From the IMG/VR virus record IMGVR_UViG_3300030447_000318: DNA of 64,000 nt, one strand, 5' to 3'. Below are positions 1,586 through 49,568 of this stretch, piece by piece (the first letter of the stretch is position 1; the number at the start of each line of letters is the position of its first letter). Source of the DNA: a virus. Position numbers and translations under genes: made by a program. Below the pieces are notes generated by a model, which searched no databases, was not told the DNA's origin, and saw nothing but the letters and a program-made list of their open reading frames with translations.

Positions 1586-2371
1586 CTACTCAAACACCTT
1601 TACAAACTTCTCATAGTTACCATCTCTACCATTTGGAACAGCAAATACAACAGTATCGAAGCATTTATGAATAGTAGTTAAATATTCTTTAAATACATTC
1701 GCTACTTCTGTTGCATCTTGACCAAAAACCCCACAACCATAAGCTCCTAAAATAAGAGTGCTCACATTATTATCTTTTGCCATATCAAGAACAAATTTAA
1801 TTCGACTTCTTAATACTTTAGTATTCTCTTCGTCTGACACGTTCTGATATTTCTGCGCAACCGACTTATTTGGAGCAGCACAAGTAATAACGCTACACTC
1901 TATGTGGCTATTCTCTCTAAAGAACCAAACACCAGGAGAAAATAATCCTCTGTTCAAATATAAAGCCTTATTCTTGTGTCGATTATTCCAATCATAAAAC
2001 TCTAATACAAACTGACTCAACACATTGTACAAGAATGATTCGTGACATAAGCACTCTTCCTGTGCCTTACTACCATTTAGAAACATTCCACCTGGATTTT
2101 TATATGAAGAAAAATTAAGAACTGCTGTACTTGGATTGCCGTATTTCATTACAGCGCCTACACTATCAATATTCTCTACAATAATCTTGGTATCTTTGTC
2201 TTCGATATCCTCTTCAAAATCCCTATTAAATGAATCTGTATCATAAATTTTTGTTGCAGAAATAGCAGTCTGAATACAACGACCATATTTATTCTGCATC
2301 TCTTTTGTATGTTTGCGAGCAGTTTCTGCTCTCTGTTCTTTATTCTGCCAATATTCTTTTATATATGCCAT
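1586..2371 (-). CDS. macro-domain / bacterial-type PARG-like protein (TIGR02452/DUF2263-like)
   Basis: C-terminal signature ...TLILGAYGCGVFGQDATEVANVF... matches the LGAWGCGVFGNDP motif of TIGR02452 macro-like proteins. Confidence 0.55.
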   Translation of the reverse strand: MAYIKEYWQNKEQRAETARKHTKEMQNKYGRCIQTAISATKIYDTDSFNRDFEEDIEDKDTKIIVENIDSVGAVMKYGNPSTAVLNFSSYKNPGGMFLNGSKAQEECLCHESFLYNVLSQFVLEFYDWNNRHKNKALYLNRGLFSPGVWFFRENSHIECSVITCAAPNKSVAQKYQNVSDEENTKVLRSRIKFVLDMAKDNNVSTLILGAYGCGVFGQDATEVANVFKEYLTTIHKCFDTVVFAVPNGRDGNYEKFVKVFE

Positions 2372-2677: not shown

Positions 2678-3604
2678 TTATTCTCCAAAAATAATCTTCT
2701 TAGCCCAATTCATAGTTGCAGAACCACACATCTTACCAAAGAATTCACCAGCTTCGATAACTAATTCATTCTCTTCTTTTACACAATCCTCAAAAATTCT
2801 CTTAGGTAGATTCTGTACAACAATTCTCATGTCCTGTGGCTCAATCTTTTGAGGTAAAACACCCTCATCAATCATTTTGTATAATTCTTTTTGAACACGA
2901 TTCTTTGTGACAATCTGCTCTACAATTTCAGAAGTCTTTGCTTTAGCTGCTAATTTCTGAGGATCTTCTACTTTCTGTCTGTGATTATCTTTCTTGATTT
3001 CACTAAGCTGTGAATTTACAATCTTTAATACAAATGGAGTTCTTGAGTTTAGGTTGTTAAGTTCTGTCTGATTCTTAACGACAATTCCTTCAGGTACATC
3101 AACCGCAATATCTGACTTGTGCATAAATGACATACAATGCTCCCAAGAGATAAACTCTCCATCATAAAATGTCTGAACATATCTCAGATTTAATTCATCA
3201 GCAAGTCTCTTAACCTCTGATTGAGGTAAATAACATTCATTCTTTTTGTCATATACATCGTAAAAATATGATTTACCATAAGCTTCTGGAATATATTTAA
3301 TAGTATGTTTTGTAAGCCACTCCATGAAAAATACATAATTTGGATATTTTTGAAATGGTTCAACTGCCAATGTCTGTACCCAATTCCAGAATCCATTTAA
3401 TGTGTTGTTATAATCAAGAGTCTGCCTTCTCGAAAATGCAACTAACTTATTTGTTTCTTTATCATAAGCAATAGCTGAATTGCTTCCATCTACCTTTTCC
3501 TGAATTACAATATGATCTCCTACATGGAAACCACCTGTATTCGCTACTGTTAATTCCGTATCTTCCTTAATACGTGAAATATCCATAAATTTCTTCTGTT
3601 CCAA
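2678..3604 (-). CDS. ATP-dependent RNA ligase (Rnl2-like nucleotidyltransferase)
   Basis: Motif I EKVDGSN (KxDG lysine adenylation site), motif IV-like EGIVVKN and motif V-like VLKIVN. Size 308 aa. Confidence 0.55.
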   Translation of the reverse strand: MEQKKFMDISRIKEDTELTVANTGGFHVGDHIVIQEKVDGSNSAIAYDKETNKLVAFSRRQTLDYNNTLNGFWNWVQTLAVEPFQKYPNYVFFMEWLTKHTIKYIPEAYGKSYFYDVYDKKNECYLPQSEVKRLADELNLRYVQTFYDGEFISWEHCMSFMHKSDIAVDVPEGIVVKNQTELNNLNSRTPFVLKIVNSQLSEIKKDNHRQKVEDPQKLAAKAKTSEIVEQIVTKNRVQKELYKMIDEGVLPQKIEPQDMRIVVQNLPKRIFEDCVKEENELVIEAGEFFGKMCGSATMNWAKKIIFGE

Positions 3605-29386: not shown

Positions 29387-30057
29387 TAGTTTTCACCGCC
29401 TAATAGTTCCAAAGCTACTTTATAATATTTGGTTCTCCCTTTATATTCAGAAGAACTAACTTTGCTTAACTCAAGTTTTATCTTACCAATGGTATATTGA
29501 TGAGTGATAGCATCTTCCATAACCTGAATGAATCTTATACACTGCTTTAATTTCTTATGCTTGTCTCTTATGTCATCGAGCAGGTAGCCGACTTTTGCCA
29601 TTCTATGAGCTTGTGGCTTTTTACCACCTCTATTTTCTCTGTAAGTTTGTAATGCGTGCTCAATGTCAGATTCAGCACTATCACATCTACTTAGTTCTGC
29701 TATAAGCAGATTCTTATATGTATTAAGCTGTTCCATATCCCAGCCTGCTAATCCTAGAAGATTATTTGTTTCGTTTATTATCTTATCAAGCATTGAATAA
29801 TCAAAATTACTTTCATCCATATAAACTCCATCATTACCCTTATAGTAAAGAGATAATTCTGATTCTTCGTTTTTATCTACATCAACAAGCTGATAGTTTC
29901 TTAGCCATGACAACCTTTTACCGCCTCTCTGGACTAATGACCTTGCTTGTTTATATGTAAATTGTTTTGCTTTTAATGGCGAAGTGGTTGCTAAATACTC
30001 ACCTATCTTCATAGGATTTTCCATTACATAATTTTTACCATTAGTTAAAATAAACAC
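29386..30057 (-). CDS. hypothetical protein
   Basis: 223-aa ORF. Confidence 0.45.
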   Translation of the reverse strand: MFILTNGKNYVMENPMKIGEYLATTSPLKAKQFTYKQARSLVQRGGKRLSWLRNYQLVDVDKNEESELSLYYKGNDGVYMDESNFDYSMLDKIINETNNLLGLAGWDMEQLNTYKNLLIAELSRCDSAESDIEHALQTYRENRGGKKPQAHRMAKVGYLLDDIRDKHKKLKQCIRFIQVMEDAITHQYTIGKIKLELSKVSSSEYKGRTKYYKVALELLGGEN

Positions 30058-30087
30058 TTTCTTATTCTCCTTTCTTACTGTAAATAA

Positions 30088-30160
30088 CAGGGCTAATCGG
30101 ATTCGAACCGATGAATGCAGAGATCAAAACCCTGTGCCTTACCACTTGGCGATAGCCCTA
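30088..30160 (-). tRNA. tRNA-Gln (anticodon UUG)
   Basis: Minus-strand sequence AGGGCTATCGCCAAGTGGTAAGGCACAGGGTTTTGATCTCTGCATTCATCGGTTCGAATCCGATTAGCCCTG folds as a cloverleaf. It has a 7-bp acceptor stem, U8, A14, GG in the D-loop, anticodon loop TTTTGAT (anticodon TTG) and a GGTTCGAATCC T-arm. No encoded CCA. Confidence 0.8.
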
Positions 30161-36884: not shown

Positions 36885-37128
36885 TCAACATTATTGTTCT
36901 TTATCCATTCCCAAAGAATTTGAGAGACTAAAGCATTTCGTGTATTTTTCATCTACAACTTAACCATATTTTAATAAAATATCCTCTTTTATGAACAATA
37001 TATCCTCAATACTCTATATAATATATCATTTTCTATATTATATGTCAATATGTTTTATATATATTTCTATATATTTTGTGTTGACTAATATATTTTATAT
37101 GTTACAATATAAATATGGAGGTGACATT

Positions 37129-37326
37129 ATGTTTTCATACAAACCATTGTTAAAATTACTCATAGAAAGGGATATGACCAAAACTCAACTTCGTGAAGCC
37201 ACTGGAATGAGTATGAATACCCTTGCTAAAATAAGCAAAAACGAATATATTTCAATGGCTACCCTTGATAACATCTGTTCTTATTTACATTGTAATATTG
37301 AAGATGTAATTGAATTTATTGAATAA
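37129..37326 (+). CDS. XRE-family HTH transcriptional regulator
   Basis: HTH TKTQLREATGMSMNTLAKISKNE. The RBS ggaggtgacatt overlaps a GTGACAT operator half-site. Confidence 0.55.
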   Translation: MFSYKPLLKLLIERDMTKTQLREATGMSMNTLAKISKNEYISMATLDNICSYLHCNIEDVIEFIE

Positions 37327-38811: not shown

Positions 38812-39029
38812 AATTTCTTCTTCCGTCATAGCGTCACCTTCTTCTATATTTTTATTAAATGTATTTTTAACTACATTCATTTGTATTTGTAGCTACATAA
38901 TAACACATAATTGTTGTAGTGTCAAGTACATTTTTAGCAAAAAATGACTATATTTTGTATTTTTAACTACATTGGTTTGACATCAATAATAAACGATGAT
39001 ATAATCAAAAAACATAAGGAGGCGAATTT

Positions 39030-39815
39030 ATGCTGATTAGCGAAAAATTTGAGCTTATTAGAAAAGCGAACAATTTAACAAAAATGAAGTTCTGTGACAA
39101 AGTAGGAATGTCTCGATCTCATTACGACAGTTTACTTGCTGAAAAAAACAGCGATAAAATTATCAATAAGACTACCAATATATCTATAATCAATAGCATA
39201 TGTTATTTATTTAATGTGGATAAACAATGGTTGACTAATGATGAAAGCAATATTGATTTTTTTGATAAAAAATTTAATCAACAAATTGTTGATAATTATA
39301 TGTTGCTGTCAGAAGCAAGCAAAAATATTGTTGATAATCTTATTGATGGTTTATTGGAATTAAATAACAATCAACCGTCAACTACTCAACAGCCAGTAAT
39401 CAGATTAGCTGTATATGACCAACCAGTATGTGCTGGTAATGGTAACTTCATTACGGACGCAACAAAAACATTTAAGGATTTCCCTAATGCCCCGTCTGAT
39501 GCTGATTTCGCAGTTAGAGTTCAAGGCGATTCCATGACACCTGCTTACAACGATGGTGATTTAGTGTTTGTTAAATCTACCGACACATTGAATAACGGAG
39601 ATGACGGTATTTTTATCGTAGATGGCGATATAACGCTAAAAAGATTTATGGGTAATGAATTAATCCCATTAAATCCAAAATACTCTAAAATAAGCCAAAA
39701 AGCTATAATTCAAGGCAAAGTGGTTGGCATCGCAGAACATCACTCTGATTTAGAGGCTGAAGTTTTAGATATTGTAAACCAAGACAAGCCGCAAAACTTA
39801 AAAAAATCTATTTAA
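39030..39815 (+). CDS. cI/LexA-like repressor (N-terminal HTH plus C-terminal S24 peptidase)
   Basis: N-terminal HTH. C-terminal VRVQGDSMTPAYNDGDLVFV...LKRF (Ser/Lys dyad). Confidence 0.7.
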   Translation: MLISEKFELIRKANNLTKMKFCDKVGMSRSHYDSLLAEKNSDKIINKTTNISIINSICYLFNVDKQWLTNDESNIDFFDKKFNQQIVDNYMLLSEASKNIVDNLIDGLLELNNNQPSTTQQPVIRLAVYDQPVCAGNGNFITDATKTFKDFPNAPSDADFAVRVQGDSMTPAYNDGDLVFVKSTDTLNNGDDGIFIVDGDITLKRFMGNELIPLNPKYSKISQKAIIQGKVVGIAEHHSDLEAEVLDIVNQDKPQNLKKSI

Positions 39816-47021: not shown

Positions 47022-47498
47022 CTAAAAAGGAACATAATCTTCATATTTTTCATACAACTTCTCTAAGTAAGTATCACAGTCTTCTACTATTTTATCTATT
47101 ACATCACAAAATTCAGAAAACGATTCTTCTTCATATTCCCACATATCTCTACCTGTACATCTAAATACGTAATGTTTCCCTAGTTCATCGTCATTTTTAT
47201 TTTCTTCTTCTGCTTTTCTTTCCCACTCTTCTTTTTCCTCGTCTGGTAAATAATCATAATCAATCGCTAAAGGAATCCAACGACTCTCAATCAAGAACTC
47301 TGGAACTGGAAGATTTTCTTTTCCGCAGAAATCTCTGAAATTATAGTCTGAATCGCTCAAGAAAAAATCTAACGATTCAGCATGGCTACTATCGGGGAAA
47401 TATATATCATGACGATATTTAGACAGTATTCTTTTGTGACGTTTTAAAGTATCAATTAAACTTGTTTGACTTTCTGTTAACATTGTTTTGTTTTCCAT
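47022..47498 (-). CDS. acidic hypothetical protein
   Basis: 158-aa ORF, Glu/Asp-rich. Confidence 0.45.
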   Translation of the reverse strand: MENKTMLTESQTSLIDTLKRHKRILSKYRHDIYFPDSSHAESLDFFLSDSDYNFRDFCGKENLPVPEFLIESRWIPLAIDYDYLPDEEKEEWERKAEEENKNDDELGKHYVFRCTGRDMWEYEEESFSEFCDVIDKIVEDCDTYLEKLYEKYEDYVPF

Positions 47499-47549
47499 AT
47501 TTATTACCTCCTTAAAACAAACAATTTTATTAATTTTTTAAAAATGCCC

Positions 47550-47645
47550 TTGACAAAATGAAAAGTGATTTCTACTATCGTAGATGAAGAGTAGGAAAAT
47601 CCTACAATATTGCAAGACGAGGTTTATACCTCGTCTTTTTTTATT
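47550..47645 (+). CRISPR. solitary Cas12a-type repeat unit 1 (promoter -35, repeat hairpin, 28-nt segment with second hairpin, terminator)
   Basis: CTTGACAAA at 47549-47557 (ttgaca core 47550-47555). Repeat ATTTCTACTATCGTAGAT at 47568-47585 (stem TCTAC/GTAGA). Terminator gacgagg-tttata-cctcgtc followed by T7 at 47615-47643. The -10 position is ambiguous for this copy. Confidence 0.5.
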
Positions 47646-47691
47646 CATAATCATAACAAAATTTTGTCAGGGTGTGAACCACACCCTATTA

Positions 47692-48033
47692 TCAAGCTAA
47701 GCAATTAACTATTGAATAATATTCTTTTCTTTCTACCATCATTATTACAACTTTTGCATTTTTATCATCATACCATTCCTCAAAATCGGCAAACCCATCA
47801 TTAGCCATTATAGAGAAGGAATAATCTTTTTCATCCATAATTTGATAATTTGCGACTTCTAAATTATTAAATAATTGTTTTGGGATGTCATCTTCGGTTA
47901 TTTCTTTAATTTTGTCTTGATGTATGTCATACACAGAATAATGTTCATCTTTTGGTATATATATCTTAAAATCAACAATGGTTTCATTTTTATTTTTCTC
48001 TAATATTTTATTATAAAGTTCTAAAATTTTCAT
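47692..48033 (-). CDS. hypothetical protein
   Basis: 113-aa ORF. Confidence 0.45.
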   Translation of the reverse strand: MKILELYNKILEKNKNETIVDFKIYIPKDEHYSVYDIHQDKIKEITEDDIPKQLFNNLEVANYQIMDEKDYSFSIMANDGFADFEEWYDDKNAKVVIMMVERKEYYSIVNCLA

Positions 48034-48070
48034 ATTTCTACCTCCGCCCTCATTAACAAAAATAATATTC

Positions 48071-48493
48071 CTAAAAACTTAAATAAACTTCTGAGTCATC
48101 TTCATCGTATTGGTTCATAGCGTCTACAGCATCAGCCATATTATCGTAAGTTCCTAAAGTCTTATAAGACGGTGTTTCTATAAGACTAATATAAATCTTT
48201 GAATAATCAGAGATTTCTCCTCCAGAAACCCACTCACCATCTTCATCATATTCATTTTCTTCCAGATAATATTCATCTACGAGATAATATGTTCCTTTTG
48301 CACCAGATAATTCAGATATACTCGTTTTGTGTTCATTTAATCTTTTTTTAGCTCTATCTTCCTCATTTTCATTGAAACTTTCAATTAATTCTGAAACTTG
48401 ATCATCATTTAAAAGAGTGACACCCTCTTTTATTTCTTTTCTATCTCTATATGGGATTTCTATACTTGCTTTTCTAAGTTCTATTTTTTTCAT
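48071..48493 (-). CDS. acidic hypothetical protein (start MKKIELRK with RBS gaggagg)
   Basis: The longest-ORF start is a TTG. The ATG at about 48493 has a perfect SD. Confidence 0.45.
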   Translation of the reverse strand: MKKIELRKASIEIPYRDRKEIKEGVTLLNDDQVSELIESFNENEEDRAKKRLNEHKTSISELSGAKGTYYLVDEYYLEENEYDEDGEWVSGGEISDYSKIYISLIETPSYKTLGTYDNMADAVDAMNQYDEDDSEVYLSF

Positions 48494-48525
48494 ATCACTT
48501 ACCTCCTCAAAAATAAAAAACTTTC

Positions 48526-48643
48526 TTGACAAATTAAATATTATGTAATATAATATGCAATGTAATTTCTACTATAGTAGATAAAAAACATATTACAACA
48601 GGTTAGAGAGACGGGATTTTGCATCCGTCTCTCTTTTATTTGC
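48526..48643 (+). CRISPR. solitary Cas12a-type repeat unit 2 (TTGACA-17-TATAAT promoter, repeat TAATTTCTACTATAGTAGAT, 23-nt spacer-like segment, terminator)
   Basis: -35 at 48526-48531. -10 at 48549-48554. Repeat at 48563-48582. 23-nt segment aaaaaacatattacaacaggtta at 48583-48605. Terminator gagagacgg...ccgtctctc plus T-run at 48606-48640. Confidence 0.6.
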
Positions 48644-48650
48644 TCTAATT

Positions 48651-48923
48651 TTAAGCCCAAACATCAGTTACTTTATACCCAATTAAAAATCCATTGTTGT
48701 TATATAATTTTTCGACCTGTACAGATATTACTGTAGCATCCTTACTATTTACATAGCATTGCCACACCTGTCCATCTTCACCAATAATTACTTCTCCGTT
48801 AGAGGATGAGTCGGTTTCGAAGTCTTCAAAACCACAAATAATCTCCTCTGCAAGCTCTTGTTCCTCGTATTCCTTACCTACTAACTTTCTCAAATTTTCC
48901 ATAACTTGTTCTAAAGTAGTCAT
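48651..48923 (-). CDS. hypothetical protein
   Basis: 90-aa ORF. Confidence 0.45.
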   Translation of the reverse strand: MTTLEQVMENLRKLVGKEYEEQELAEEIICGFEDFETDSSSNGEVIIGEDGQVWQCYVNSKDATVISVQVEKLYNNNGFLIGYKVTDVWA

Positions 48924-48989
48924 ATTACTTGCCTCCTCAAATCTAATAATTTTTCTCTCTTTCTAAGTATATTTTGAAAAATTTTATAC

Positions 48990-49145
48990 TTGACAAACTA
49001 AATATATTATGTATAATAAATATTGTAACACAACTTGTGTTGCTGATTTCTACTTAGCGTAGATGAAATGCCCACATAGTGTATTGGTAGTAAATGTTGG
49101 GCGACAGAGGGCGTAGTATCCAGATTGGCTACGCCCATTTTTATT
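48990..49145 (+). CRISPR. solitary Cas12a-type repeat unit 3 (TTGACA-16-TATAAT promoter, repeat ATTTCTACTTAGCGTAGAT with Lb-like 5-nt loop, ~44-nt segment, terminator)
   Basis: -35 at 48990-48995. -10 at 49012-49017. Repeat at 49046-49064. Terminator gggcgtag...ctacgccc plus ATTTTTATT at 49109-49145. Confidence 0.55.
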
Positions 49146-49148
49146 GTT

Positions 49149-49568
49149 TTACTCTATTGCGTCTCTAAGAATTTGAATAAAATTCTCGATGTTTTTTACA
49201 TTTTCTTTATCCATTTTTTTACCCCATTCTTCGACCTTTGGAAGACGTATCCAGTCTTCATAATCATAGTCATCAGGAGAAACTGGGCAATCGAAAATTT
49301 CGCATAAATATTTTCCATCATACCCAAGGTTGTGTTCCATATTAGAATATATATGAGGATAAATGTCTATAACGTCTACTGAGTTTGGAACTATAAAATC
49401 ATAGTCTCCTACACAATATTCATCTAAGATACTGCCTATTTCTTCATATATCTCATTCTCATAATGTGTTGACAAAAAATCTATATAGCTAACAGATGAA
49501 CTTAATTCTATAATGTCTTTTTCGATTTTATCAATTTGTGTTAAACTTAAATTATATTTATTTTTCAT
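49149..49568 (-). CDS. hypothetical protein
   Basis: 139-aa ORF. Confidence 0.45.
   Translation of the reverse strand: MKNKYNLSLTQIDKIEKDIIELSSSVSYIDFLSTHYENEIYEEIGSILDEYCVGDYDFIVPNSVDVIDIYPHIYSNMEHNLGYDGKYLCEIFDCPVSPDDYDYEDWIRLPKVEEWGKKMDKENVKNIENFIQILRDAIE

What the first reader, a model, noticed from the sequence alone, without database searches (positions are those of the whole stretch)
48990..49145. Unit 3: Lb-type repeat variant with a longer spacer-like segment and an extra 5' leader
The repeat ATTTCTACTTAGCGTAGAT has a 5-nt loop (UUAGC), like the LbCas12a repeat loop UAAGU. The promoter is TTGACA-16-TATAAT. A 28-nt leader that contains a small palindrome lies between the -10 box and the repeat. 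This would require Cas12a-type 5' processing. The following 44 nt, starting gaaatgcccacatagtgtattggt, end in the terminator gggcgtag/ctacgccc. Units 2 and 3 differ in loop type and promoter detail. This suggests the units were acquired or evolved separately, perhaps against different Cas12a orthologues.
Basis: seen in the sequence. Interest (0 to 1): 0.8.

Follow-up and report, generated by a model that had tools for sequence, protein, structure and literature searches.

The report
Prophage RNA mimicking a Cas12a guide
A gut-bacterium prophage carries a small, separately transcribed RNA gene whose core copies the hairpin that the CRISPR enzyme Cas12a grips on its guide RNAs, so it most likely hijacks or jams the host's Cas12a; this kind of phage trick was described in 2023-2026, and this is a new example rather than a new principle.

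Summary
It comprises a consensus promoter (48990-49017), a 28-nt leader with an 8-bp hairpin, a perfect Cas12a 5'-handle ATTTCTACTTAGCGTAGAT (49046-49064), 44 nt of spacer-like sequence, and an intrinsic terminator (49109-49143).

It is one of three such units, all on the + strand among minus-strand genes. The full handle pattern occurs 3 times against 0.00 expected.

The window is a large temperate prophage of a human-gut Clostridia host. The host lead is Butyribacter intestini. The units share the strand and the consensus promoter type of the CI-like repressor gene.

The units lie in a 2.2-kb island of small acidic ORFs. This island is absent from a 99%-identical relative, and its modules are gained, lost and recombined among relatives.

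Unit 3 fits the known class of viral solitary type V-A repeat RNAs (Racr/Cracr). I found no target, no host CreR twin and no CRISPR array with its TTAGC loop. Its seed region is polymorphic and may be hairpin-occluded. I therefore favour a Cas12a-sequestering decoy over a regulatory guide. Unit 2 has an invariant 21-nt spacer and looks guide-like.

Verdict: a new member of a known kind, of moderate interest. Neither the host's Cas12a nor expression of the unit was verified.

The parts
48990..49017 (+). Unit 3 promoter: TTGACA (48990-95), 16 nt, TATAAT (49012-17)
   Evidence: 12/12 consensus match. One of only 3 perfect sites in 64 kb against 0.24 expected. Activity was not measured.
49018..49045 (+). 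Unit 3 leader. The predicted transcription start is near 49024. An 8-bp hairpin (49025-49043, loop CTT) sits at the 5' end. Cas12a processing would be expected to remove the leader.
   Evidence: Fold. Invariant in all alleles. A similar leader hairpin precedes the handle in L003. Processing is inferred.
49046..49064 (+). Unit 3 Cas12a-type 5' handle ATTTCTACTTAGCGTAGAT (stem TCTAC/GTAGA, loop TTAGC)
   Evidence: The stem and flanks are identical to V-A array repeats in L057, L058, L070 and L072. Invariant in all relatives.
49065..49108 (+). Unit 3 spacer-like segment (44 nt). A possible hairpin pairs 49070-49077 with 49094-49102. Positions 7, 11 and 12 (49071, 49075, 49076) are polymorphic.
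   Evidence: Folds (the hairpin is not better than shuffles for the 64-nt piece). Alleles. Pair counts. No target found.
49109..49143 (+). Unit 3 intrinsic terminator (9-bp G+C-rich stem, 10-nt loop, T-run)
   Evidence: Fold. The simple scanner missed it because its loop limit is 8. Invariant apart from one G>T at the stem base in L031.
49149..49568 (-). 139-aa acidic ORF (pI 4.3) that always travels with Unit 3. Candidate protein partner; function unknown.
   Evidence: Co-occurrence across loci. No Pfam, PHROG or PDB match. AlphaFold model pLDDT 56.
48526..48640 (+). Unit 2: consensus promoter (48526-48554), handle ATTTCTACTATAGTAGAT (48565-48582), 21-nt spacer AAAAAACATATTACAACAGGT (48583-48603), terminator (48605-48640)
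   Evidence: The spacer is 21/21 identical in relatives whose promoter region is 54-58% identical and whose loop and terminator differ.
47550..47645 (+). Unit 1: TTGACA (47550-55), handle ATTTCTACTATCGTAGAT (47568-47585), 28-nt tail with hairpin GTAGGA-AAA-TCCTAC (47591-47605), terminator (47614-47645). In this window the -10 box and leader are missing.
   Evidence: Relatives L003 and L044 have a full promoter plus leader. The hairpin is kept while the 5-8 nt next to the handle differ.
47097..49262 (.). Variable island holding all three units and the small acidic ORFs 47692-48033, 48071-48532 and 48651-48923 (pI 4.0-4.6). Absent from a 99%-identical relative.
   Evidence: L001 joins window 49263 to 47096 and fuses two ORFs. 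Mosaic and presence/absence patterns. Acidity.

Best explanation
Unit 3 is a prophage gene for a small non-coding RNA of the viral 'solitary type V-A repeat' class (Racr-like RNA anti-CRISPR).

Shown by the sequence:
- A consensus sigma-70 promoter on the strand opposite the lytic genes. This is the strand and promoter type used by the CI-like repressor gene.
- A predicted transcript of about 120 nt made of a 5' hairpin leader, a perfect Cas12a 5'-handle pseudoknot/hairpin sequence, a 44-nt tail and an intrinsic terminator.

Inferred:
- The RNA is made constitutively in lysogens and early in infection.
- Host Cas12a binds the handle and cuts off the leader just upstream of AUUUCUAC.
- Cas12a is thereby loaded with a non-immune RNA.
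- Abundant expression from this and the two sister units titrates Cas12a away from host crRNAs. This protects the prophage and its progeny from type V-A interference.

For Unit 3 in particular, I think the tail is not a conserved guide. Its PAM-proximal positions 7, 11 and 12 differ among near-identical phages. All three changes preserve a possible hairpin that starts 6 nt after the handle, as in Unit 1. Such a hairpin would block R-loop extension and make the complex inert.
For: - Handle: identical in stem and flanks to genuine V-A repeats, and far beyond chance. Only the loop varies among the units and their relatives.
- Solitary: there is no second repeat.
- Own signals: consensus promoter and terminator.
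- Mobile-element context: Pol III alpha, RecJ, DnaB, primase, integrase and an S24 CI-like repressor. The nearest isolates are Clostridium/Clostridioides phage-plasmids. SPbeta-like genes and a Butyribacter intestini genome copy are seen in relatives.
- Accessory island: present or absent in relatives and filled with small acidic ORFs, as is typical around anti-CRISPR genes.
- Published precedent: three V-A solitary-repeat RNAs inhibit MbCas12a (PMC10651486). CracrVA1 has the same repeat-spacer-terminator layout and is processed by Cas12a (bioRxiv 10.1101/2024.10.29.618823).
- Decoy rather than guide: the seed is polymorphic. All three changes keep the hairpin as G.U pairs. Unit 1 relatives keep the hairpin but not the seed. 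No target or CreR twin was found.
Against: - No expression, processing or inhibition data exist.
- The host's Cas12a was not found or examined.
- The TTAGC-loop handle matches no known array.
- The tail hairpin is weak: the fold is no better than shuffles for the 64-nt piece, and there are only one-sided changes.
- All Unit 3 copies come from one closely related phage lineage. Its conservation equals that of the neighbouring ORF (97-99%), so there is no independent sign of purifying selection.
- Liu et al. argue that V-A systems with CreR autoregulation resist pure sequestration. That favours a guide function.
- Seed polymorphism could instead track variation in a target.
Confidence: 0.5

Rival explanations
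1. Cracr-type regulatory guide. After Cas12a processing, the first 10-20 nt or so of the tail guide Cas12a by partial complementarity next to a TTTV PAM. The target would be the host cas12a promoter or another defence promoter, which is repressed without cleavage. This would act on top of competition with crRNAs.
For: - The architecture is the same as CracrVA1: single repeat, spacer-like part, rho-independent terminator, own promoter.
- The sister Unit 2 has a 21-nt spacer that is invariant across three loops, three promoter contexts and two terminator versions. The island therefore does contain sequence-specific guides.
- In three of the four Unit 3 alleles the first 10 nt are unchanged.
- Published arrays carry several Cracrs against variants of one CRISPR type, which fits three different units.
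Against: - No repeat+seed twin (CreR) of Unit 2 or Unit 3 exists in 185,579 species representatives. The only hits were chance hits in coding genes and one unrelated array.
- No PAM+seed match of 10 nt or more near cas12a in the five Cas12a loci sampled.
- Seed position 7 differs in L044-46.
- The tail is 44 nt, against 21 nt in CracrVA1.
- The true host locus was not available, so these negatives are weak.
Confidence: 0.27
2. Orphan crRNA (one-spacer mini-array). The lysogen expresses a true guide that uses host Cas12a to cleave a competing phage or plasmid. This would be superinfection exclusion that benefits both prophage and host.
For: - For Cas12a, a single 5' repeat plus spacer is a complete crRNA (established knowledge; reprogrammed CracrVA1 cleaves efficiently).
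- The lysogeny-strand orientation and constitutive promoter fit a lysogenic-conversion gene.
- Polymorphism at guide positions could follow escape variants.
Against: - No protospacer in INPHARED phages or PLSDB plasmids by BLAST; only chance-level hits.
- In IMG/VR, TTTV plus the first 15 nt gave one 16-nt hit, in a 46% G+C contig, where about 2 are expected by chance.
- No match in the window or in related loci.
- There is no second repeat.
Confidence: 0.12
3. Not related to Cas12a. The hairpins would be ordinary sRNA, antisense or terminator elements of the phage that resemble the repeat by chance.
For: - No experimental link to Cas12a.
- The stem TCTAC/GTAGA is a palindrome that would also form on the antisense transcript.
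- The exact loop variant is unknown in arrays.
Against: - There are three copies of the 15 invariant handle bases in 1.5 kb against 0.00 expected.
- Variation is confined to the loop, the position Cas12a tolerates.
- Promoters and T-run terminators are all oriented on the + strand.
- There is no Rfam family match.
- The minus-strand 43-aa ORF has no ribosome-binding site, and the allele changes in it are non-synonymous.
Confidence: 0.04

Closest known systems
RacrVA1-3, viral solitary repeat units of type V-A (Camara-Wilpert, Mayo-Munoz et al., Nature 2023; PMC10651486)
   Same: - A single CRISPR-repeat mimic on a phage or prophage, outside any array.
- A strong promoter of its own.
- Located among candidate anti-defence genes.
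- Proposed to compete with host crRNAs for the Cas protein.
- V-A solitary repeats in human-gut viruses (e.g. CAATAATTTCTACTATTGTAGAT) are already in that paper's catalogue.
   Different: - The sequence is not in the part of the catalogue I could search, and Unit 3 is absent from IMG/VR.
- The loop TTAGC matches no known array.
- There is a 21-nt hairpin leader and a long, possibly structured 44-nt tail.
- It is one of three separately transcribed units.
- Activity is untested here.
CracrVA1, viral Cas-repressing crRNA-like RNA (Liu et al., bioRxiv 10.1101/2024.10.29.618823)
   Same: - Layout: native promoter, single repeat-like sequence, spacer-like sequence, rho-independent terminator.
- Source: an uncultured gut phage of a Clostridia host.
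- The precursor needs Cas12a processing.
   Different: - CracrVA1 has a 21-nt spacer with a 10-nt PAM-flanked match to P_cas12a and a host CreR twin. No such match or twin was found for Unit 3.
- The reported Cracr arrays are I-C, I-E and I-F only, and each is a single transcription unit.
- Here three V-A units each have their own promoter and terminator, and are interleaved with ORFs on the other strand.
Host CreR RNAs of type V-A loci (Liu et al., bioRxiv 10.1101/2023.03.10.532045)
   Same: A degenerate one-repeat element with the Cas12a handle plus a short guide.
   Different: CreR sits upstream of cas12a in the host and targets its promoter. Unit 3 is on a prophage, far from any cas gene, and has no identified target.
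Viral CRISPR mini-arrays used in inter-virus competition (reviewed in PMC11656645)
   Same: A minimal CRISPR component on a virus that relies on host Cas proteins.
   Different: Mini-arrays have two or more repeats, and their spacers match related viruses. Unit 3 has one repeat and no match.

Membership tests
Cas12a (type V-A) crRNA 5' handle | Sequence (A)AUUUCUACU-[3-5 nt]-GUAGAU with a 5-bp stem UCUAC/GUAGA, directly followed by the guide | tested here: met
   49046-49064 ATTTCTACTTAGCGTAGAT. The same invariant bases occur in arrays next to cas12a in L057, L058, L070 and L072. The hairpin is kept in the full-transcript fold.
Cas12a (type V-A) crRNA 5' handle | Identity to the repeat of a CRISPR array in a (host) genome | tested here: not met
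   The exact 19-mer gave 0 hits in GTDB species representatives. In metagenome contigs there was 1 hit, not in an array. Only the loop differs from real repeats.
Cas12a (type V-A) crRNA 5' handle | Bound and 5'-processed by Cas12a | not testable with these tools
   Needs RNA-seq or 5' RACE with and without Cas12a, or in-vitro processing.
Racr (RNA anti-CRISPR, solitary repeat unit) | Single repeat in an intergenic region of a virus or plasmid, with no other full or partial repeat within about 100 bp | tested here: met
   Handles are 480-1000 nt apart and separated by ORFs, with no degenerate copies. Phage context is shown.
Racr (RNA anti-CRISPR, solitary repeat unit) | Host carries the cognate CRISPR-Cas subtype | tested here: inconclusive
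   The host lead is Butyribacter intestini (Lachnospiraceae), from a 90% protein cluster and an NCBI contig. Cas12a is common in gut Clostridia-like metagenome contigs. No cas12a locus of this host could be fetched, and the five loci sampled show no link to the phage.
Racr (RNA anti-CRISPR, solitary repeat unit) | Highly expressed and inhibits CRISPR interference | not testable with these tools
   Only a 12/12 consensus promoter is seen.
Racr (RNA anti-CRISPR, solitary repeat unit) | Neighbourhood of anti-CRISPR protein genes | tested here: inconclusive
   Neighbours are small acidic ORFs (pI 4.0-4.6). They have no match in Pfam, PHROGs or PDB, and their structure models have low confidence.
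Cracr (Cas/CreT-repressing RNA anti-CRISPR) | Repeat-like sequence plus spacer-like sequence plus terminator on a mobile element | tested here: met
Cracr (Cas/CreT-repressing RNA anti-CRISPR) | At least 9 PAM-proximal nt shared with a host CreR/CreA spacer, or matching a cas promoter next to a PAM | tested here: inconclusive
   No handle plus 10-nt-seed twin in 185,579 genomes. No PAM+seed match of 10 nt or more in five cas12a loci. The real host locus was not examined.
Viral CRISPR mini-array | Spacer flanked by two repeats | tested here: not met
   There is one handle per unit. The tail runs straight into a terminator with no degenerate second repeat.
Viral CRISPR mini-array | Spacer matches related viruses or other mobile elements | tested here: not met
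   INPHARED, PLSDB, IMG/VR, the window and the related loci gave chance-level hits only. Genome and metagenome collections were not scanned for protospacers.

The most novel reading that the evidence does not exclude
The island may be a lysogeny-expressed toolkit with a division of labour. In this reading, Units 1 and 3 are 'seed-caged' handles. A hairpin starting 6 nt after the handle would make Cas12a complexes inert; this design has not been described for Racrs. Unit 2 would be a strictly conserved guide that redirects the same Cas12a to a conserved host or rival-element site. Together they would both disarm and repurpose the host nuclease from the prophage state. Each unit may be paired with an acidic protein partner, as Unit 3 always travels with ORF 49149-49568.
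Probability: 0.15. Interest if true: 0.7.

Novelty: new member of a known kind. Interest (0 to 1): 0.42.

Why it matters
If active, this is a natural RNA inhibitor or hijacker of Cas12a from a prophage that is widespread in human-gut metagenomes. Its neighbouring proteins are listed in 220-350 index blocks of public assemblies.

- Decoy-like and guide-like V-A units sit side by side under separate promoters. That offers a compact system to compare sequestration (Racr) with reprogramming (Cracr), and to find the protein partners.
- It may explain how large temperate phages persist in Cas12a-bearing Lachnospiraceae.
- The handle variants and the leader and tail designs could be useful as Cas12a off-switches or crRNA scaffolds.

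It does not reveal a new principle.

Tried and rejected
**Relatives of Unit 3**
- IMG/VR gave 0 hits with handle+seed, with the exact handle, and with 27 nt of the tail.
- Only near-identical copies were found through neighbouring proteins.

**Host array with the TTAGC loop**
- None in GTDB representatives or in metagenomes.

**CreR twin**
- A degenerate handle + 10-nt seed scan of genomes returned Emticicia coding sequences and one unrelated array. I rejected these as chance.

**Protospacers**
- BLAST against phages and plasmids, and PAM+seed scans of IMG/VR, gave only chance-level hits.
- There is no self-target in the window.

**Rfam**
- No family matched at the gathering or permissive thresholds.

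**Neighbouring ORFs**
- No Pfam, PHROG or PDB similarity.
- Single-sequence AlphaFold models had pLDDT 56 and 49, so I did not run fold searches.

**Host Cas12a**
- I fetched five loci. They showed no seed matches, and none of about 190 spacers hits the phage.
- Two of the loci belong to rare unnamed organisms.

**Rejected alternatives**
- A minus-strand 43-aa ORF across Unit 3: no ribosome-binding site, not called in any contig, and the allele changes are non-synonymous.
- A handle-like site with a compensated stem at 29693-29711: it lies inside a coding region with no promoter or terminator, so I judged it chance.

**Covariation**
- Testing the tail hairpin showed only one-sided changes, so the result is inconclusive.

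Full report
**What is there**

- Promoter: TTGACA (48990-48995), 16 nt, TATAAT (49012-49017).
- 28 nt (49018-49045).
- ATTTCTACTTAGCGTAGAT (49046-49064).
- 44 nt (49065-49108).
- A G+C-rich hairpin with a T-run (49109-49143).

The promoter is a 12/12 consensus match. With a start near 49024, the predicted transcript of about 120 nt folds into four elements:
- an 8-bp hairpin at the very 5' end (49025-49043);
- the 5-bp handle hairpin;
- a weak hairpin inside the 44 nt (49070-49077 with 49094-49102);
- the terminator.

The 15 invariant handle bases ATTTCTACT...GTAGAT occur three times in the window, all on the + strand at 47568, 48565 and 49046. In 100 dinucleotide-preserving shuffles the expected count is 0.00. 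Relaxing to three mismatches adds only background. Perfect TTGACA-N16-18-TATAAT sites number three in 64 kb against 0.24 expected, and two of them drive Units 2 and 3.

**Context**

The window has 31% G+C, and almost every ORF is on the minus strand.
- It encodes a Pol III alpha-type polymerase, RecJ, a DnaB-like helicase, a primase, a replication initiator and a tyrosine recombinase.
- The polymerase is closest (about 43% identity) to the large Clostridioides difficile phiCD211/phiCDIF1296T and Clostridium botulinum c-st phage-plasmids.
- Relatives carry SPbeta-type genes (YomU, YomW, YopX) and lie inside contigs of 0.2-0.65 Mb. The element is therefore a large temperate prophage.
- The window's helicase falls in a 90% cluster with a RefSeq protein named for Butyribacter intestini (Lachnospiraceae). 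That cluster includes a 336-kb NCBI contig that carries the replication module. This is the host lead, not a proof.
- The third perfect promoter in the window (38977, + strand) drives a 261-aa protein with a LexA/CI-type S24 peptidase domain. Another + strand ORF is a Cro/C1 HTH protein.

The three RNA units thus share strand and promoter type with the lysogeny-maintenance gene and oppose the lytic genes. I infer that they are expressed from the prophage. This was not measured.

**The island**

Each unit sits in a gap between small minus-strand ORFs.
- These ORFs have no Pfam, PHROG or PDB match.
- All are acidic, with pI 4.0-4.6.
- An IMG/VR relative that is 99% identical on both sides lacks window 47097-49262 altogether, and two flanking ORFs are fused there.
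- Other close relatives carry none of the units, U1+U2, U2+U3 or all three.
- Unit 3 is always accompanied by the ORF 49149-49568 family.
- Parts are recombined. L002 joins a Unit-1-type upstream region to the Unit-2 spacer. L040 and L044 give Units 2 and 1 different, complete promoters. The window's Unit 1 has lost its -10 box and leader relative to L003 and L044.

This is the behaviour of an accessory, probably counter-defence, island.

**What the three tails say**

*Unit 2.* The 21-nt tail AAAAAACATATTACAACAGGT is identical in every relative. It stays identical where the promoter region is only 54-58% identical, the loop differs (TATA, TATT, TATC), the terminator has 4-5 changes, and the adjacent ORF is 77-82% identical. 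That is purifying selection on the sequence itself, as expected of a guide.

*Unit 1.* Relatives keep a hairpin (GTAGG(A)...(T)CCTAC) that starts 6-9 nt after the handle, but not the nucleotides next to the handle (GAAGA against GACTAAAA). That is not how a guide evolves.

*Unit 3.* All copies come from one lineage. The unit is 97-100% identical, no better than the neighbouring ORF (97-99%). Conservation alone therefore says little.
- The few differences are concentrated at tail positions 7, 11 and 12 (C>T, C>T, A>G).
- The handle, leader, remaining tail and terminator never change across the five haplotypes, apart from one G>T at the base of the terminator stem in L031.
- All three changes turn Watson-Crick pairs of the predicted tail hairpin into G.U pairs.
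- They are one-sided transitions, and the hairpin is not better than shuffled controls. This is suggestive only.

**Targets and host system**

I found no target.
- Handle+seed searches gave 0 hits in IMG/VR.
- In 185,579 species-representative genomes there were only chance hits. No host CreR-like twin exists there for Unit 2 or 3.
- PAM+seed scans of IMG/VR gave one 16-nt match, in a 46% G+C contig, for Unit 3 (about 2 expected by chance) and none for Unit 2.
- BLAST against INPHARED and PLSDB gave chance-level hits.
- The window has no PAM-flanked seed of 9 nt or more.
- The exact Unit-3 handle is in no CRISPR array in the genome or metagenome collections.

Five cas12a loci retrieved through an LbCas12a search show that real arrays share the stem and flanks.
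- Their repeats end in AATTTCTACTATTGTAGAT, ...CTGTTGTAGAT and ...CTACTATGTAGAT.
- The TATT form is identical to the phage units in L002 and L003.
- None has a promoter match to the tails or a spacer against this phage.
- None could be tied to the host.

**Comparison with what is known**

- Solitary repeat units on phages were shown to be RNA anti-CRISPRs (Racrs). Three V-A candidates inhibited MbCas12a. V-A solitary repeats from gut viruses are in that catalogue (PMC10651486).
- CracrVA1 comes from an uncultured gut phage and has the same layout as Unit 3. It is processed by Cas12a to a 19-nt handle plus 21-nt guide. It represses P_cas12a through a 10-nt PAM-flanked match that mimics the host CreR (bioRxiv 10.1101/2024.10.29.618823).
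- The multi-unit Cracr arrays reported there are I-C, I-E and I-F, and each is one transcription unit.

Unit 3 meets the sequence-level criteria of a V-A solitary repeat unit. It meets the architectural criterion of a Cracr but not, so far, the target criterion. It fails the criteria of a mini-array (one repeat, no viral match).

**Mechanism**

Shown: the handle, the signals, the prophage context and the modular island.

Inferred:
- constitutive transcription;
- Cas12a binding and removal of the leader;
- occupation of Cas12a by a non-immune RNA, and hence protection from V-A interference.

For Unit 3 I favour an inert decoy (0.5) over a regulatory guide (0.27) or a true crRNA (0.12). The reasons are the polymorphic seed, the possible seed-occluding hairpin shared in design with Unit 1, the long tail, and the absence of any twin or target. 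The main caveats are that the host locus was not seen and that published work suggests CreR-regulated V-A systems resist pure sequestration.

**Verdict**

- The reading as a Cas12a-directed RNA is supported.
- The idea that loop types mark different Cas12a orthologues is not supported, because the loop drifts on an otherwise fixed unit and matches no array.
- This is a new member of a known kind, of moderate interest. It gains some value from the three-unit, separately promoted, lysogeny-strand arrangement in a common human-gut prophage.

Noticed in passing
window 48583-48603 (Unit 2 spacer); L002, L040, L041, L044, L060, L064, L068: The 21-nt Unit 2 tail AAAAAACATATTACAACAGGT is identical behind three different loops, three promoter/leader contexts and two terminator versions. 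This is a strong sign of a sequence-specific guide whose target is unknown.
   Followed up: partly
window 47550-47585 vs L003:5494-5560 and L044: Unit 1 in this window lacks the -10 box and leader that relatives have (about 33 nt shorter). The only -10-like hexamer, TACTAT, lies inside the handle, so transcription from it would start after the handle. This copy may be decaying or differently expressed.
   Followed up: partly
window 38977-39815 (+) and 36991-37326 (+): A third perfect consensus promoter drives a 261-aa LexA/CI-type (Peptidase_S24) protein, and a Cro/C1 HTH protein is also on the + strand. This is the probable lysogeny switch, on the same strand as the three RNA units.
   Followed up: partly
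window 1586-2371 (-) and 2678-3604 (-): A microbial-type poly(ADP-ribose) glycohydrolase domain protein lies next to an RNA ligase. Both are plausible counter-defence genes (reversal of ADP-ribosylation; repair of cleaved tRNA).
   Followed up: no
window 47096/49263 junction; L001:4303-4305: In the 99%-identical relative, the deletion of the island fuses the first 102 codons of ORF 49149-49568 to the last ~25 codons of ORF 47022-47498 at a 2-3 nt microhomology.
   Followed up: yes
L049:3185-4483, L052:4525-5823, L062:8679-9854, L064:8830-9849: IS605-family OrfB/TnpB (Cas12f1-like TNB domain) genes are inserted at different places in related prophages. They are absent from the window.
   Followed up: no
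window 29693-29711 (+): AGTTCTGCTATAAGCAGAT resembles the handle, with a compensated stem (TCTGC/GCAGA). It lies inside a minus-strand ORF and has no promoter or terminator, so I judged it chance.
   Followed up: yes
L038:10674-10692 (IMGVR_UViG_3300025921_000111): TTTG followed by 16 nt identical to the start of the Unit 3 tail, in an unrelated 46% G+C viral contig. The count is as expected by chance, but it is the only PAM-flanked match found.
   Followed up: partly
window 30087-30160 (-): A phage-encoded tRNA-Gln (anticodon TTG).
   Followed up: no
window 43500-64000: A run of about 20 kb of small minus-strand ORFs with almost no family matches surrounds the island. It may hold further anti-defence genes.
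   Followed up: no
L057:10751-13140 and L058:10655-13690: Two low-G+C gut cas12a loci carry large arrays (38 and 49 or more repeats). Their repeat ends are exactly the handle of the phage units in L002 and L003 (AATTTCTACTATTGTAGAT). The organisms are unnamed singletons.
   Followed up: partly
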